A stretch of 37,834 nucleotides of DNA from a virus, in the IMG/VR virus record IMGVR_UViG_3300040801_005339; one strand, 5' to 3'. The first letter of the stretch is position 1, and each line of letters starts with the position of its first letter. This document shows positions 118-7,176 of this stretch, piece after piece. The notes below the pieces were generated by a model. The model ran no database searches and was not told the DNA's origin. It saw nothing but the letters and a program-made list of their open reading frames with translations. A program made the position numbers and the translations under genes.

Positions 118-158
118 CTGAAGATTTACGAATACGCAAAAATATAATTATTCTCTAA
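1..158 (+). CDS. 3' part of the wrap-around 87-aa ORF that starts at 37612 (1..117 duplicates 37718..37834; 118..158 is the unique end)
   Basis: Frame beginning at base 3 (ctt aag caa ...) stays open to TAA at 156..158 and is continuous with the frame at the window end. Confidence 0.5.
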   Translation, partial: LKQGEIEAYRFNDTLMFFTLKNNDVKKYYIGGIAKKKKAEDLRIRKNIIIL

Positions 159-543
159 TTAGATCTTGAACAATAGTTAGTTTTTCATCTATCATCTCAG
201 CTTCAGACAAATAAATATTTTCTTCAATCCAGGTATTACCATAATTAGCAAATTTAAAAGCTATCTTATGAAAATAATCACCTGGATTGAGTTTTTCATA
301 GTCGGGTTTATCAAATCGAATTTTTATCATTTGATTTGAAGTATCAAAATCTATAGCCTGCTCTTGATAGGGTTGCTCTACGTCAAGCACTTTAAAAATA
401 CCAGAGCTATCATCTGCTTGCATAAGATCTTTTTTTGCGACATAGCAGATATTAGATACGTCAGCAGGCTCTAAATTATACTTAGATAAAGTCTCTGATA
501 TATCTATTTCAATCGCAGTCACATCGCCATATAGTCTAATCAT
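148..543 (-). CDS. Hypothetical protein, 131 aa, last gene of the leftward fibre-like operon
   Basis: ORF track. ATG overlaps the stop of the upstream 45-aa ORF (ATGA). No motif recognised. Confidence 0.6.
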   Translation of the reverse strand: MIRLYGDVTAIEIDISETLSKYNLEPADVSNICYVAKKDLMQADDSSGIFKVLDVEQPYQEQAIDFDTSNQMIKIRFDKPDYEKLNPGDYFHKIAFKFANYGNTWIEENIYLSEAEMIDEKLTIVQDLIRE

Positions 544-677
544 TTGGTTTTATATTTCACTCCAGATGGTGTTTTGTAATAATTTATATCGTTTTTGGTT
601 CTAGCTACTTTCTTATAAAAGATATTTTGACCAGGCAACAAAGATTGAGCCAATTTAAAAAATTTAAATAAAATCAT
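540..677 (-). CDS. Small basic protein, 45 aa (below the ORF-track size cutoff)
   Basis: Hand translation MILFKFFKLAQSLLPGQNIFYKKVARTKNDINYYKTPSGVKYKTK. ATGA start/stop overlaps with both neighbouring genes (677/674 and 543/540) exactly fill the gap. Confidence 0.45.
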   Translation of the reverse strand: MILFKFFKLAQSLLPGQNIFYKKVARTKNDINYYKTPSGVKYKTK

Positions 678-2164
678 AGGCTTACCTTTTCTACACTAAA
701 TACTTGTTCGTAATTAAGATTACCAGCAGCATCTTTTAAATTATGCTTTAAAATTACATCGCCGTTTTCATCTAAATGGATCATTTCATTCGTACTGGTG
801 TTTATGTAGCTTGTGCCGATCATCAAGCTATTTATGAAGCTTAATAAATTTTTGATAGCCAATATATTCGTGTTGTCGGGCGCCATGTAACTAGCTGAAG
901 CGAGTCTACTATTAACTTGAGTGTTACTAGCAGGGTCTACAGGCAAGTTGTCCGTTTTAGATTTAATTGCTGCTACGTCTGCTGGCATGTCGCCGAGGTC
1001 AACGCTATCAGCCTTAAAATCACTTACTGAAGTGACCGAATTGTTATTTACTTGCTTTATATTGGCTTCTACAATGTCACTAGAAGCATCGAAATTAGAC
1101 CTACTTGAAATAGTAGTATCTAAATTATTTAATCTCGCATCATTTACTAGAACTGGATTTGAAGGAATTGTATCAATCTTAGTTTTTATATCAGCAATAT
1201 CTGATGACTCTGAATTAAATTTAGCTTTTACTGCACTTGCTATAATTTCGACTTCAACAGCAGGTAAATCAAAATCTTGATTAATTTTTTGAGAGATTGC
1301 ATCAAGTAGCTGCTGGCTGTCACCTTCATTTAGCAAAGCCGCCTCGATAGCAACTGCTAAAGATTGAACTTGACTTGAGCTTAATTCGAAGTTAGATTTA
1401 TCTGTTAGTGTTCTTGTTGCGCTACTCCAAATTTCACCGGCAATTTCAGATAAACTTGGTATGTCTGATACAGCTGAAGGCGAAGTTGGCAGATTATCTG
1501 TTTTAAATTTAATACTATTTATTTTTGTGTTATCAGGCGCTGTGTAATCAGCTGAAGCTAATCTAGTATTAACTTGAGTATTACTTGCAGGGTCTGAAGG
1601 CAAGTTGTCCGTTTTAGATTTAATTGCTGCTACGTCTGCTGGCATGTCGCCGAGGTTAACACTGTCTGCTTTATAGTCATCCTTGCCAGCAAAAGACTGC
1701 AAGTAGTTATGAAACGTAGCTTCACTCAATCCAGAGCCACCACCACTCGGCGATTGCTCTAAAGCCTTGGCTTTAAATCTATCTTTACCAGTACCATCAT
1801 CCTCAATTAGTGCTGCAATTTTAGAGATATTACTGTTGTCGGGCGCCAAGTATGAGCTAGAAGCCATTCTGGTTTTTAGCAAATCGTTTATTTCAAGAGT
1901 ATCAACAACTTTATCACCATCCCAAAATATCGTTTCAGAATGCCCGACTTGAGCGCCCGATATGAAGTATTTAGCTAGATATCGGGCTTTTATAAAAGTG
2001 CCTGGTATGACAAACTGGTATAATCCAGATTTAGATTCATCAGCAAATTGTAATTCATTCATATTGATATTGGATCCAGCTTGAATCCCAGTATCAAGAT
2101 TAATTATTTTTGCTTGAATATTTTGATTAAGCTTGTTAAAGCCAAATGTAATTTTGTTAGCCAT
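674..2164 (-). CDS. Fibre-like structural protein with internal sequence repeats
   Basis: 496 aa. Repeated block KADSV(N/D)LGDMPADVAAIKSKTDNLP-DPASNTQVN-RLASA-Y-APDNT-I occurs twice, with a third APDNSNISKI copy. Ser/Asn/Asp-rich. Confidence 0.6.
   Translation of the reverse strand: MANKITFGFNKLNQNIQAKIINLDTGIQAGSNINMNELQFADESKSGLYQFVIPGTFIKARYLAKYFISGAQVGHSETIFWDGDKVVDTLEINDLLKTRMASSSYLAPDNSNISKIAALIEDDGTGKDRFKAKALEQSPSGGGSGLSEATFHNYLQSFAGKDDYKADSVNLGDMPADVAAIKSKTDNLPSDPASNTQVNTRLASADYTAPDNTKINSIKFKTDNLPTSPSAVSDIPSLSEIAGEIWSSATRTLTDKSNFELSSSQVQSLAVAIEAALLNEGDSQQLLDAISQKINQDFDLPAVEVEIIASAVKAKFNSESSDIADIKTKIDTIPSNPVLVNDARLNNLDTTISSRSNFDASSDIVEANIKQVNNNSVTSVSDFKADSVDLGDMPADVAAIKSKTDNLPVDPASNTQVNSRLASASYMAPDNTNILAIKNLLSFINSLMIGTSYINTSTNEMIHLDENGDVILKHNLKDAAGNLNYEQVFSVEKVSL
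871..1013. repeat. Intragenic DNA repeat copy 1 (about 143 bp) inside the 496-aa gene
   Basis: Aligns with 1527..1670. 58 nt are perfectly identical (941..998 = 1599..1656). Confidence 0.85.
1527..1670. repeat. Intragenic DNA repeat copy 2
   Basis: See copy 1. Offset between the identical cores is 658 bp, not a multiple of 3. A shorter third copy lies near 1834..1872. Confidence 0.85.
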
Positions 2165-2177
2165 ATATATTGTCCCA

Positions 2178-5680: not shown

Positions 5681-6015
5681 TGCTTGATGACCCCTTTTAA
5701 TACTTGAGTGTCTCTGAAATCCTCTTGTCGAGCTTTGATAACGGCTTGATTGAATCTTAAAGAATTTATAATCTCTTTTCTGCCGATTTGAATGAAACAA
5801 ATCAAAAGTACTACTATTGTTAACAGCGTAATTATCCTAGATTGATTTTTAGTCTTTGTATTCAAAAGATCAAGATCTTTGTAACTATCCAAATGATTTG
5901 CTACGTGAGGAGCTATAAATTTAATATATTTAGCTATAAATTCTGAAGCATTCAAGCAAGAATTATCTTTCAAAAATTCGTTTGTTTCGCTAGTTAATTT
6001 TCTTTTTGATGGCAT
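5677..6015 (-). CDS. Small membrane protein, 112 aa, one central TM helix
   Basis: Hydrophobic stretch IITLLTIVVLLICFIQI. Translationally coupled to its neighbours. Confidence 0.55.
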   Translation of the reverse strand: MPSKRKLTSETNEFLKDNSCLNASEFIAKYIKFIAPHVANHLDSYKDLDLLNTKTKNQSRIITLLTIVVLLICFIQIGRKEIINSLRFNQAVIKARQEDFRDTQVLKGVIKQ

Positions 6016-6352
6016 TTATATCTTCTTTTATTTCTTTTAAGCTCACAAAAATTTCAGCACTATTTTCCAAGTTTGACTTATTGACTAATTCAAACTTATC
6101 GACTGACTGATTAAGCGCTTGTACAGCAAGTTGGTGAAAACCTTTGGAATCGTTAGCGATGCTCAGAATGCACGTTTCAAATGATTTATTGTATGTTTGA
6201 GCAAGTTGTAAGTTATAAGCCTGATCTGCTTTGATTCGCTCATGAAATTTATCATCCCGACGATCCGAAGATCTTTGATTGTAGATAAACATTATTAAAG
6301 CAAGAGTGAATCCGCTTGCTTCAGTTATCATATCCATGATATCTAGCTCCAT
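5990..6352 (-). CDS. Small membrane-anchored protein, 120 aa, N-terminal TM helix plus a helical domain
   Basis: ASGFTLALIMFIYN hydrophobic segment followed by a charged, helix-prone sequence. Confidence 0.55.
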   Translation of the reverse strand: MELDIMDMITEASGFTLALIMFIYNQRSSDRRDDKFHERIKADQAYNLQLAQTYNKSFETCILSIANDSKGFHQLAVQALNQSVDKFELVNKSNLENSAEIFVSLKEIKEDINAIKKKIN

Positions 6353-6389
6353 ACATTTAGTGTATGGTTTGATTTAGTGACTTAAACTT

Positions 6390-6866
6390 TTACGGCTTTG
6401 TAGTAGTGTTGCGAACAATTGAAGACTGAACTGAATTTATGCTCTGTATGGCACATTTAGCATTACTATGTAAATCTCTTTTAATACTGTCAAGCTCCAA
6501 GTTGTCGTTTTTATAATTTTTCATCCTTAACGAAATTAAAATAAAAGCAATAGAAATAAACAATCCTCCAAAACTAAGGTATATGTTTTTCATGTTAATA
6601 TCATCAACCATGAAAGCCTGGATGAATAACGACAACCCAAGCATAAAATAAGGTTCGGGATTAGTTAAATCAAAAATCTTAACCGTATCGATTCTATTTA
6701 ATTGTGTTACACTCGTATCAATTTGCTGAATATTATTTCTTATATTTTCTAATTCTTTAAAGTTCATATTAAAAACAGTTACCTCTGTTTCTAAGTTAAC
6801 TTGATTGTAATAGCTTGAGACCTTAGAGTTATTCTTGGTATTAAATAGATCACTAGCTTTGGTCAT
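6390..6866 (-). CDS. Membrane protein, 158 aa, two predicted TM helices
   Basis: PYFMLGLSLFIQAFMV and IYLSFGGLFISIAFILISL hydrophobic segments. Soluble N- and C-terminal tails. Confidence 0.6.
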   Translation of the reverse strand: MTKASDLFNTKNNSKVSSYYNQVNLETEVTVFNMNFKELENIRNNIQQIDTSVTQLNRIDTVKIFDLTNPEPYFMLGLSLFIQAFMVDDINMKNIYLSFGGLFISIAFILISLRMKNYKNDNLELDSIKRDLHSNAKCAIQSINSVQSSIVRNTTTKP

Positions 6867-7176
6867 TTTTACCGCCCTCGACTGATATTGGTTTTACTCC
6901 AAGCCCATTAGCATTAAGATGATATACCGTCATGCATTTAGTGCAAATTATCATTACATGCGGGAAAAGCAATCTTTGTCCGCCAACTATAAATTTATCC
7001 CCATTCGTACCAGGTTCGATGTCAAAAATATGATCTATAACTTCAAAATTCTGACTAGAGCATAAACCGCATTTTAAGCCAGTATTTTCGATGTGCTTAA
7101 GTACTTGCTGCTGCTGTTGCTGACCAATTCTTTTGTATCTATCTTTTATATCTACTTGTTCTAACTTGTCTAGCAT
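6853..7176 (-). CDS. Zinc-ribbon protein, 107 aa, first gene of the leftward operon next to attP
   Basis: CGLC ... CTKC cysteine pairs. QQQQQQ run. 14-nt overlap with the next gene. Confidence 0.6.
   Translation of the reverse strand: MLDKLEQVDIKDRYKRIGQQQQQQVLKHIENTGLKCGLCSSQNFEVIDHIFDIEPGTNGDKFIVGGQRLLFPHVMIICTKCMTVYHLNANGLGVKPISVEGGKNDQS

What the first reader, a model, noticed from the sequence alone, without database searches (positions are those of the whole stretch)
148..7176. Detached operon next to attP looks like an exported system rather than a spare tail-fibre set
Ten back-to-back minus-strand ORFs run from 7176 down to 148. Almost all are linked by start/stop overlaps: 14 nt, 26 nt, GTGA, 8 nt, 8 nt, ATGA, ATGA. 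The int/early block (7359-12696) separates this operon from the main virion operon, which already ends in its own fibre candidate (12693..13823).

Gene order is Zn-ribbon protein, 2-TM protein, two single-TM proteins, a 78-aa protein, a 774-aa collagen-like protein, a 318-aa metzincin, a 496-aa repeat protein, a 45-aa protein and a 131-aa protein.

The two central products begin with textbook Sec signal peptides, MFRKFLIILSIASGLGAQA|R and MNKILAVFLLMLCKSVSA|H. Virion proteins assembled in the cytoplasm are not expected to carry these.

After integration at the tRNA site this operon sits at the prophage end, the classic position for lysogenic-conversion cargo. My inference is a phage-borne module exporting a collagen-like fibre plus a protease to the cell envelope or medium, with membrane helpers. 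I cannot match that combination to a described system.
Basis: partly seen in the sequence, partly recalled or inferred. Interest (0 to 1): 0.8.

Follow-up and report, generated by a model that had tools for sequence, protein, structure and literature searches.

The report
Detached tail-fibre operon with signal peptides
A temperate phage of an uncultured low-GC gammaproteobacterium carries, next to its integration site, a separate operon built from ordinary tail-fibre parts, but one fibre protein and a neighbouring orphan zinc protease begin with export-signal-like sequences, so part of it may act on the host envelope.

Summary
Ten minus-strand ORFs (7176 to 148) have exactly the stated overlaps. 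They sit beside an attP that is 62 nt of a tRNA-Thr 3' end, in a circular 37.7-kb myovirus genome. Only the 774-aa and 318-aa products have signal-peptide-like N-termini.

The 774-aa protein is a mosaic of standard phage fibre modules. The 496-aa protein belongs to a large 37-aa-repeat family that sits at the distal end of tail and fibre gene clusters in many unrelated phages, and it has no signal peptide. So this is a fibre cassette, not a non-fibre system.

The 318-aa protein is an orphan metzincin with a good Sec-type signal. It resembles the prophage-encoded secreted metzincin Mtz of Listeria, an accessory lysis factor. A signal-bearing M43 metzincin also lies next to a 774-aa relative in a crAss-like contig.

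The signal on the 774-aa fibre is real in sequence, but RIRK follows the cleavage site, which disfavours Sec export.

My best reading is an accessory fibre plus envelope-acting module. Export of the fibre as a surface adhesin is not excluded. Expression timing and localisation are untested.

The parts
7357..7418 (-). attP core: 62 nt identical to the 3' part of tRNA-Thr(UGU), with the CCA end at 7359
   Evidence: no complete tRNA in the window
7177..7356 (-). AT-rich leader or promoter region of the operon. In a lysogen it would follow the rebuilt tRNA-Thr in the same orientation.
   Evidence: sequence. There is only a weak sigma-70-like match at 7232-7205 and no terminator after the tRNA part. 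No motif is shared with the virion-operon leader.
6853..7176 (-). 107-aa protein with two CxxC pairs (C36/C39, C78/C81), a zinc-ribbon type; function unknown
   Evidence: weak Phage_zn_bind_2 hit, E 0.014
6390..6866 (-). 158-aa protein with a hydrophobic hairpin (about aa 72-87 and 95-113); holin-like or other membrane protein
   Evidence: no homologues
5990..6352 (-). 120-aa protein with an N-terminal transmembrane helix and a charged, probably coiled-coil (not tested), C-terminal part; weak BhlA-holin resemblance
   Evidence: (PF10960, E 0.02, below cut-off)
5677..6015 (-). 112-aa protein with one transmembrane helix (aa 60-78)
5444..5680 (-). 78-aa protein (GTG start), no signal peptide. 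It weakly resembles the C-terminal domain of Cellulophaga phage Ingeline gp30, which precedes virion-structural, pectate-lyase and tail-fibre genes. Candidate fibre adaptor.
   Evidence: 37% identity over 63 aa; database E 0.2, weak
3127..5451 (-). 774-aa collagen-like fibre protein made of several phage-fibre modules
   Evidence: PHROG tail-fibre hits outside the collagen run; aa 66-117 are about 52-55% identical to annotated tail-fibre genes of Campylobacter phages CP220 and relatives; aa 415-561 are 42-44% identical to P0014 and P0028; the DTSPQLGGNLD segment matches the solved fibre gp28 of cyanophage P-SCSP1u, profile E 8e-5
5395..5451 (-). Codons 1-19 of the 774-aa protein: MFRKFLIILSIASGLGAQA, signal-peptide-like, followed by RIRK
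   Evidence: no alternative in-frame start nearby
4267..4410 (-). 16 uninterrupted G-X-Y triplets (aa 348-395)
2178..3134 (-). 318-aa orphan metzincin with a Sec/SPI-like N-terminus (MNKILAVFLLMLCKSVSA|H), four Cys in the mature part, a C-terminal prealbumin/CarboxypepD_reg-like beta-sandwich (aa ~212-280) and a basic tail
2631..2663 (-). Zinc-binding motif HELGHCLGWAH (aa 158-168), followed by D and a Met-turn SIMY
   Evidence: sequence; Pfam M10, Reprolysin_3/4/5 and DUF4953 hits on this stretch, all below gathering score
674..2164 (-). 496-aa protein of the 'AIKAKTDNLP' 37-aa-repeat family. It has an N-terminal beta domain, helical repeats and a small C-terminal beta domain, no Cys and no signal peptide. 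It contains an internal 160-nt duplication (863-1022 / 1520-1679).
   Evidence: genomic contexts
540..677 (-). 45-aa basic protein; function unknown
   Evidence: called by JGI
148..543 (-). 131-aa orphan protein in the position where fibre-assembly or accessory proteins usually lie
   Evidence: no significant match
37099..37599 (+). Context: M15 peptidase, the only recognisable endolysin. It has no signal peptide. It lies close to the operon's 3' end across the circular junction, on the opposite strand, with only an 87-aa ORF (37612 to 158) in between.

Best explanation
The operon is an accessory host-surface module of the phage, assembled from ordinary tail-fibre building blocks.

Shown:
- The 774-aa product is a fibre-type protein. 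It contains a conserved fibre 'LDELQEIV' segment, two GQxLxK...W junction motifs, a collagen run, a DTSPQLGGNLD shaft and an 'NVADPTLDQDAATKAYVD' segment.
- The 496-aa product belongs to a widespread repeat family whose genes sit at the distal end of tail, fibre or spike clusters.
- The 318-aa product carries a metzincin zinc site and Met-turn behind a good Sec/SPI-type signal.

Inferred:
- The cassette is a second fibre set (78-aa adaptor, 774-aa and 496-aa fibres, 45-aa and 131-aa helpers) made with the late genes.
- The four small Zn-ribbon and membrane proteins at its head are lysis-timing (holin-type) or exclusion proteins, working with the nearby M15 endolysin.
- The metzincin is exported to the periplasm or envelope. 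There it cuts envelope or receptor proteins to help release or prevent re-adsorption, as the secreted prophage metzincin Mtz does in Listeria.
- The hydrophobic N-terminus of the 774-aa fibre is the unresolved point. Because RIRK follows the AQA site, I rate efficient Sec export as uncertain.

For: Fibre homology of the 774-aa protein outside the collagen run:
- PHROG tail-fibre families 19602 (E 3e-10), 819 and 35419.
- Campylobacter phage tail-fibre genes, about 52-55% identity over aa 66-117.
- The shaft, aa 415-561, is 42-44% identical to P0014 and P0028. P0014 lies in a crAss-like phage contig.
- A profile of this shaft hits the solved virion fibre gp28 of cyanophage P-SCSP1u, E 8e-5.

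The 496-aa family:
- 725 relatives and at least 197 IMG/VR contigs.
- All six contexts inspected lie in phage structural clusters: after Baseplate_J/wedge, after GpJ, after a beta-helix spike, and so on.
- The annotated PHROG families hit by upstream neighbours in 40-odd further viral contigs are mostly tail fibre, baseplate wedge, tail needle, tail spike and virion structural, although the single commonest family (8 members) has no annotated function.
- There is no convincing signal peptide in the family.

Lysis genes embedded among fibre genes occur in a relative's locus (L003: holin-like, GH108, a signal-peptide protein, then 724-aa and 814-aa proteins).

A signal-bearing M43 metzincin follows the 774-aa relative and precedes an Amidase_2 lysin in contig L011.

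Precedent: Sec/SPI metzincin Mtz in Listeria prophages lies downstream of holin-lysin and has an accessory lysis effect (PMC8235301).

Codon usage and GC3 of the operon match the rest of the phage.

The M15 endolysin has no signal peptide and lies near the operon's end.
Against: - Two neighbouring proteins with signal-like N-termini are unlikely by chance. None of the recognisable virion proteins has one.
- The 774-aa protein lacks the roughly 140-200 residues that precede the LDELQEIV segment in the matching fibre families. That is where a virion-attachment domain would be.
- The adaptor role of the 78-aa protein rests on a weak match (database E 0.2).
- The operon is not contiguous with the baseplate genes, and no late-promoter motif is shared.
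- Holin and lysis roles for the first four genes rest on topology and a sub-threshold BhlA hit only.
- The metzincin catalytic domain has no detectable homologue, and the AlphaFold model is unusable.
- No expression or localisation data exist.
Confidence: 0.45

Rival explanations
1. Lysogenic-conversion cargo. A fibre-derived collagen-like adhesin (774 aa) and a metzincin (318 aa) are exported by Sec, and then by a host system such as T2SS, to the lysogen's envelope or medium. Transcription comes from the operon's own promoter or by read-through from the rebuilt tRNA-Thr gene. This changes adhesion or matrix interactions of the host. The 496-aa, 45-aa and 131-aa proteins are leftovers of the fibre cassette or are released only at lysis.
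For: - Signal-like N-termini on exactly these two adjacent proteins, with an SD-supported start for the 318-aa gene.
- Four Cys in the mature metzincin, typical of periplasmic or secreted enzymes.
- No N-terminal attachment region in the 774-aa protein.
- The operon lies immediately downstream of, and co-oriented with, the tRNA after integration, with no terminator between them.
- About 13 of the listed 774-aa (mostly collagen-region) hits have signal-like N-termini, most looking like cellular surface proteins.
- Lcl of Legionella is a Sec/T2SS-exported collagen-like adhesin in a gammaproteobacterium (own knowledge). The NCBIfam Lcl model hits the collagen part only.
- PblB is a phage tail protein with a predicted signal peptide that acts as an adhesin (PMC4508584).
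Against: - RIRK directly after the predicted cleavage site of the 774-aa protein is unfavourable for Sec export in Gram-negative bacteria (established knowledge; not tested here).
- The 496-aa partner, translationally linked in the same operon, is a fibre-module protein without a signal.
- The operon contains no outer-membrane or secretion component.
- Composition is not foreign.
- All assemblies of this phage, from five JGI samples and one SRA run, are in the excised circular form, so no lysogen is documented.
Confidence: 0.3
2. Receptor masking or destruction. During infection or lysogeny the phage exports a receptor-binding fibre-like decoy and a protease that occupy or cleave its own receptor on the producing cell. 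This gives superinfection exclusion and prevents progeny from being lost on debris.
For: The same signal-peptide evidence as above. A fibre-type receptor-binding architecture is paired with a protease. A signal-bearing metzincin recurs next to a fibre gene and lysis genes in an unrelated crAss-like contig.
Against: There is no known example of an exported fibre decoy. No match to any PADLOC defence or exclusion model. The receptor is unknown. The RIRK objection applies here too.
Confidence: 0.1
3. Periplasmic staging of a virion fibre. The weakly hydrophobic, Gly/Ala/Ser-rich N-terminus tethers or exports the 774-aa fibre to the periplasm, similar to a signal-arrest-release (SAR) segment. The fibre joins fibreless particles only after holin triggering and lysis.
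For: The h-region FLIILSIASGLGAQA is short and has 7 of 15 residues Gly/Ala/Ser, with basic residues on both sides. Holin-like membrane proteins lie in the same operon. Fibres of some phages can attach to particles after assembly (established for T4 in vitro; own knowledge).
Against: This is unprecedented for any fibre. The 78-aa and 496-aa partners lack such segments. Nothing in the data specifically requires it.
Confidence: 0.05

Closest known systems
Collagen-like phage tail fibres / side fibres (PHROG 'tail fiber' and 'collagen like minor tail' families; solved fibre gp28 of cyanophage P-SCSP1u, PDB 8i4m; Campylobacter phage CP220 gp103)
   Same: Modular fibre with a G-X-Y run flanked by GQxLxK...W junctions, an LDELQEIV segment and a DTSPQLGGNLD shaft. 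It is followed by small accessory genes.
   Different: It starts with a signal-peptide-like segment instead of a long N-terminal attachment region. It is encoded in an operon separated from the baseplate genes by the int/early block.
Mtz-Tim of Listeria prophages (secreted metzincin plus TIMP-like lipoprotein; PMC8235301)
   Same: A phage-borne Sec/SPI metzincin with HExxHxxGxxH/D and a Met-turn. It is an accessory gene at the prophage periphery near lysis genes and is proposed to act on the envelope and aid lysis.
   Different: No detectable sequence similarity to anything in the phage collection. The operon has no lipoprotein inhibitor partner. The host is Gram-negative. This protein has an extra C-terminal beta-sandwich domain.
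PblA/PblB of streptococcal prophages (tail-fibre proteins that also act as bacterial adhesins; PMC4508584)
   Same: Phage tail or fibre proteins that end up on the bacterial surface. A signal peptide was predicted for pneumococcal PblB.
   Different: S. mitis PblB reaches the surface after phage-induced permeabilisation, not by Sec. The two are unrelated in sequence, and the hosts are Gram-positive.
Lcl collagen-like adhesin of Legionella (NCBIfam NF046116)
   Same: A signal peptide plus a collagen-like repeat protein in a gammaproteobacterium. The model hits aa 345-424 with E 1e-16.
   Different: The score is 60.6 against a cut-off of 500. Only the collagen part matches. The Lcl terminal domains are absent, and Lcl is chromosomal, not phage-borne.
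Fibre-metzincin-lysin arrangement in crAss-like contig L011
   Same: A relative of the 774-aa shaft is followed by M43/reprolysin-type metzincins, one with a signal-like N-terminus. Next come small membrane proteins and an Amidase_2 lysin.
   Different: The metzincins are not detectably homologous to the 318-aa protein. The fibre there has no signal peptide. The phage lineage is different.

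Membership tests
Phage tail-fibre proteins (774-aa product) | Sequence similarity to known fibre proteins outside low-complexity or collagen regions | tested here: met
   PHROG 19602, 819 and 35419; CP220 gp103 at about 54% identity over 52 aa; profile hit to solved fibre 8i4m gp28, E 8e-5
Phage tail-fibre proteins (774-aa product) | Gene lies within, or at the end of, the tail/baseplate morphogenesis cluster | tested here: not met
   It is separated from baseplate J/I (14060-17214) by the plus-strand int/early block 7508-12696
Phage tail-fibre proteins (774-aa product) | N-terminal virion-attachment domain | tested here: inconclusive
   The LDELQEIV segment starts at aa 66 here but at about aa 208 in CP220 gp103 and PHROG 19602. 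The separate 78-aa protein might supply the domain, but its only match has database E 0.2.
Phage tail-fibre proteins (774-aa product) | Presence in purified virions | not testable with these tools
   Needs virion proteomics
Sec/SPI-exported proteins (774-aa and 318-aa products) | Tripartite n/h/c region with small residues at -3 and -1 | tested here: met
   MFRK-FLIILSIASGLG-AQA and MNK-ILAVFLLMLC-KSVSA. This is a heuristic only; SignalP was not available.
Sec/SPI-exported proteins (774-aa product) | Neutral or acidic early mature region (a rule for Gram-negative bacteria) | tested here: not met
   Mature start RIRKGQ has three basic residues in the first four. The rule itself is from established knowledge. 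The 318-aa mature start, HVTHDNS, complies.
Metzincin metallopeptidases (318-aa product) | HExxHxxGxxH/D zinc motif plus a downstream Met-turn | tested here: met
   HELGHCLGWAHD at aa 158-169, with the Met-turn Met 7 residues after the third His, in SIMY
Metzincin metallopeptidases (318-aa product) | Reaches a curated family threshold (Pfam M10 or reprolysin) | tested here: not met
   Best hit is PF00413 at 20.0 bits against a cut-off of 24. Five related families all fall below cut-off. No homologue of the catalytic part was found among 1.8 billion representatives.
Metzincin metallopeptidases (318-aa product) | Metzincin fold | tested here: inconclusive
   Single-sequence AlphaFold model with mean pLDDT 42.9
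Listeria Mtz-Tim accessory lysis pair | Adjacent TIMP-like Sec/SPII lipoprotein partner | tested here: not met
   No lipobox protein in the operon. The downstream gene product (496 aa) has no signal.
'AIKAKTDNLP' 37-aa-repeat fibre-module family (496-aa product; no Pfam model) | Tandem repeats NTQVNTRLAxxxYTAPDNxxIxAIKAKTDNLPxDPAS | tested here: met
   phmmer E 3e-97 to the L003 homologue
'AIKAKTDNLP' 37-aa-repeat fibre-module family | Located at the distal end of tail, fibre or spike gene clusters | tested here: met
   True for relatives. Here it follows the fibre-like 774-aa gene.
Holin / lysis cassette (first four genes) | Small membrane proteins adjacent to an endolysin, matching a holin family | tested here: inconclusive
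   Transmembrane segments are present. BhlA scores 15.3 bits against a cut-off of 22.6. The endolysin is nearby but on the other strand.
Collagen-like adhesins Lcl / Scl | Reaches the NCBIfam equivalog cut-off and has the family's terminal domains | tested here: not met
   60.6 bits against 500, and only the collagen region matches
Anti-phage defence / exclusion systems (PADLOC) | Any model match | tested here: not met
   No hit for any of the ten proteins

The most novel reading that the evidence does not exclude
A temperate myovirus has converted part of a tail-fibre cassette into a Sec-exported pair: a collagen-like, fibre-derived adhesin and an orphan metzincin. The pair is expressed from the prophage end, possibly by read-through from the rebuilt tRNA-Thr gene. 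It either remodels the lysogen's surface or masks or destroys the phage's own receptor. A variant reading is that the fibre is staged in the periplasm and joins virions only at lysis. Either way, this would be the first tail-fibre-type protein of a Gram-negative phage shown to use the Sec pathway.
Probability: 0.25. Interest if true: 0.7.

Novelty: new variant of a known kind. Interest (0 to 1): 0.4.

Why it matters
If the fibre-type protein is truly exported, it would show a direct route by which phage receptor-binding hardware becomes a bacterial surface adhesin or an exclusion device. It would pair that hardware with a secreted protease in a Gram-negative host.

If it is not exported, the locus still has value in three ways:
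- It is a clean example of a second, detached fibre cassette.
- It adds another case of a secreted phage metzincin next to fibre and lysis genes. With the Listeria Mtz case and the crAss-like contig, this hints at a recurrent accessory function.
- It highlights a very widespread 37-aa repeat family of fibre-module proteins that has no Pfam model.

Tried and rejected
- Close relatives of the phage or operon. Single-protein scans of viral contigs with baseplate J, the 496-aa and the 318-aa proteins found nothing.
- The 318-aa protein has no relative other than itself in the 5.8-billion-protein search. Only its C-terminal beta-sandwich matches anything among 1.8 billion representatives.
- tblastn against 50,697 phage records gave nothing significant for the 120-, 131-, 158-, 318- and 376-aa proteins.
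- Looking for a lysogen. Exact scans of metagenome contigs with an operon-leader 33-mer and with the attP tRNA 32-mer found nothing. A scan of viral contigs with the tRNA 32-mer also found nothing. The genome scan found only an unoccupied tRNA-Thr site in one MAG. All assemblies of the phage are in the circular form.
- Structure. The AlphaFold model of the 318-aa protein was unusable. The 496-aa model (pLDDT 63.6) gave no informative Foldseek match in BFVD or PDB.
- A promoter motif shared with the virion operon: none found beyond AT-rich noise.
- Foreign composition: none.
- Conservation of the operon around 496-aa relatives: none of 80 viral loci encodes a relative of any other operon protein.
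- Frameshift fusion of the 78-aa and 774-aa ORFs. I rejected this because there is no slippery site, and a fusion would simply bury the hydrophobic segment internally.
- Tat signal. I rejected this because FRKFLI does not fit S/T-R-R-x-F-L-K.
- Lipoprotein signal on the 318-aa protein. I rejected this because LMLC is not a lipobox.
- Ogr/Delta-type late activator for the 107-aa Zn-ribbon protein: no family hit.
- Wolbachia WO-type eukaryotic association module. The terminase is about 40% identical to WO, but no eukaryote-like domains are present.
- Rfam: no RNA family in the window.

Full report
**1. What is in the sequence**

The window is a complete circular phage genome of about 37.7 kb. 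Bases 1-117 repeat at 37718-37834. Independent JGI contigs with other cut points read straight through that junction.

The genome has four blocks:
- a minus-strand virion block, 32749 to 12693;
- a plus-strand integrase/early block, 7508-12696;
- the minus-strand operon in question, 7176 to 148;
- a plus-strand replication block, 33859-37599, ending in an M15 peptidase of endolysin type.

The virion block includes a lambda-type large terminase about 40% identical to those of Wolbachia WO and a Silvanigrella phage. It also includes portal, protease-capsid, sheath, tube, tape measure, baseplate hub, baseplate J and a gpI-like wedge protein.

Between the integrase gene and the operon lie 62 nt (7357-7418, minus strand) identical to the 3' part of a tRNA-Thr(UGU) gene. 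That gene is from an uncultured, roughly 30% GC gammaproteobacterial MAG from a brackish microbial mat. The site is unoccupied there.

From the orientation of this core, integration would rebuild the tRNA and place the operon about 180 nt downstream of it, on the same strand. The integrase would be at the far end. This step is inference from the sequence.

**2. The signal peptides**

The 774-aa protein starts MFRKFLIILSIASGLGAQA followed by RIRKG. The 318-aa protein starts MNKILAVFLLMLCKSVSA followed by HVTHD.

A crude n/h/c heuristic run over 47 ORFs of the window flagged these two. It also flagged the integrase weakly and one small membrane protein. It flagged none of the virion proteins.

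For the 774-aa gene there is no alternative start. For the 318-aa gene one gene caller chose Met11, but only the upstream ATG has an SD-like GGCGGGG in front. The three available copies are identical.

The observation therefore stands. I add one caveat from established knowledge: three basic residues within the first four positions after the predicted cleavage site disfavour Sec export in Gram-negative bacteria. The 774-aa signal is therefore not 'textbook'. The 318-aa signal is, and its mature part has four cysteines.

**3. The 774-aa protein is made of fibre modules**

Besides the 16 G-X-Y triplets (aa 348-395), it has these matches:
- PHROG tail-fibre families in non-collagen parts.
- Residues 66-117 are about 52-55% identical to annotated tail-fibre genes of Campylobacter phages.
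- Residues 415-561 are 42-44% identical to P0014 and P0028.
- A four-sequence profile of that shaft hits the solved virion fibre gp28 of cyanophage P-SCSP1u, E 8e-5.

P0014 lies in a crAss-like phage contig. P0028 lies next to another collagen-like protein in a 205-kb contig.

The conserved LDELQEIV segment sits at about residue 208 in the matching fibres but at residue 66 here. The usual N-terminal region is therefore missing and the hydrophobic segment stands in its place.

The preceding 78-aa ORF aligns at 37% identity over 63 residues with the C-terminal domain of Cellulophaga phage Ingeline gp30. That gene lies just before virion-structural, pectate-lyase and tail-fibre genes. The database-wide E-value is only 0.2.

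**4. The 496-aa protein belongs to a large fibre-module family**

It has 725 relatives. They share a strikingly conserved 37-residue repeat, NTQVNTRLAxxxYTAPDNxxIxAIKAKTDNLPxDPAS. At least 197 IMG/VR contigs carry the repeat. No Pfam or PHROG model covers it.

In six contexts inspected the gene lies in a phage structural cluster:
- after Baseplate_J, a wedge protein and a 1040-aa fibre, with a GH108 lysis cassette in between (L003);
- after GpJ (L007);
- after large tail proteins (L005);
- after a beta-helix spike (L012);
- between capsid and tube genes of a prophage (L013);
- in an SU10-like podovirus (L014).

I also looked at the upstream neighbours in 40-odd further viral contigs. The annotated PHROG families they hit are mostly tail fibre, baseplate wedge, tail needle, tail spike and virion structural, although the single commonest family (8 members) has no annotated function.

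Family members lack convincing signal peptides. Some end in a CarboxypepD_reg-type beta-sandwich. That is the same fold class as residues 212-280 of the 318-aa protein.

The AlphaFold model (pLDDT 63.6) shows an N-terminal beta domain, helical repeats and a small C-terminal beta domain. Fold searches were uninformative.

None of 80 related loci carries relatives of the other operon proteins. The combination seen here is therefore unique in the data at hand.

**5. The 318-aa protein**

It has HELGHCLGWAHD and a SIMY Met-turn seven residues later. Sub-threshold hits to Pfam M10 and several reprolysin-type families fall on exactly that stretch. Otherwise its catalytic part is an orphan.

- In the crAss-like contig that holds the 774-aa relative, the fibre gene is followed by two M43/reprolysin-type metzincins. 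One has a signal-like N-terminus. Small membrane proteins and an Amidase_2 lysin come next.
- Listeria prophages carry a Sec/SPI metzincin, Mtz, with a TIMP-like partner, downstream of holin-lysin. It sensitises cells to phage lysis (PMC8235301).

**6. The first four genes**

These encode:
- a protein with two CxxC pairs;
- a protein with a hydrophobic hairpin;
- a protein with an N-terminal helix plus a charged C-terminal part;
- a protein with a central helix.

The only family hint is a sub-threshold BhlA-holin hit. No defence model matches.

The M15 endolysin has no signal peptide, so it needs a holin. It lies near the operon's 3' end, separated only by an 87-aa ORF that runs across the junction. 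A lysis or exclusion role for the four genes is plausible but not shown.

**7. Weighing the readings**

The homology and context evidence says the operon is a tail-fibre-type cassette. That contradicts 'rather than a spare tail-fibre set'.

The signal-like N-termini are real and unlikely to be chance. They support export of the metzincin, and possibly of the 774-aa fibre. The points in favour of fibre export are the missing N-terminal region, the detachment from the baseplate genes and the position downstream of the tRNA.

Against a whole exported system stand the signal-less 496-aa partner, the RIRK after the cleavage site and the lack of any secretion component. Native composition also counts against it.

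I therefore favour (0.45) an accessory fibre plus envelope-acting module expressed with the lytic programme. The fibre-derived exported adhesin/protease reading gets 0.30. Receptor masking gets 0.10 and periplasmic staging 0.05.

Known analogues exist for each piece: collagen-like fibres, Mtz, PblB (PMC4508584) and Lcl. This makes the locus a new variant of known kinds, not a new kind of system.

No expression, localisation or lysogen data could be obtained.

Noticed in passing
window 10499-10550, 33089-33140, 33386-33437, 33571-33622: Four copies of a roughly 52-nt element carrying an inverted TTGCACA...TGTGCA pair. Three lie in the long non-coding stretch between the virion and replication blocks and one lies inside the early block. 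They are likely operator or iteron sites. None lies in the leader of the operon studied.
   Followed up: partly
window 37612-37834 continuing to 158 (across the circular junction), + strand: An 87-aa ORF downstream of the M15 endolysin runs over the window ends, so the ORF list misses it. Its 3' end overlaps the stop of the 131-aa gene by about 11 nt. The two blocks therefore converge with no terminator between them.
   Followed up: partly
window 31900-32119: A G+C-rich, apparently structured 220-nt intergenic stretch just upstream of the small-terminase-like gene. It contrasts with the AT-rich genome and could be a cos/pac region or a small RNA. It has no Rfam match.
   Followed up: no
window 674-2164; loci L003-L007, L012-L014, L017-L096: The 37-aa repeat NTQVNTRLAxxxYTAPDNxxIxAIKAKTDNLPxDPAS is extremely conserved across unrelated myo-, sipho- and podovirus-like contigs. 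It is found in 725 proteins and at least 197 IMG/VR contigs, yet it has no Pfam or PHROG model and almost no representative among isolated phages.
   Followed up: partly
L011 3434-6896: A crAss-like contig encodes two M43/reprolysin-type metzincins between a fibre gene and the lysis genes. The first starts with a signal- or lipoprotein-like MKNLIVLFSFLLPFFCISQ. Neither has a PHROG match.
   Followed up: partly
L009 7500-7531 versus window 7320-7356: Similarity between the MAG and the phage continues for about 30 nt beyond the tRNA 3' end (TATTTTA...TATTATTT..AAC). This could be an extended att site or a trace of earlier integration.
   Followed up: no
window 11629-11799 and 12511-12696, + strand: Two small ORFs (56 and 61 aa) with N-terminal transmembrane helices lie in the last part of the early block. 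They are alternative holin or Kil-type candidates.
   Followed up: no
window 19861-20314 and 24034-24248: Two stretches inside the virion block contain no ORF of 70 aa or more. They may hold short genes or frameshifted products.
   Followed up: no
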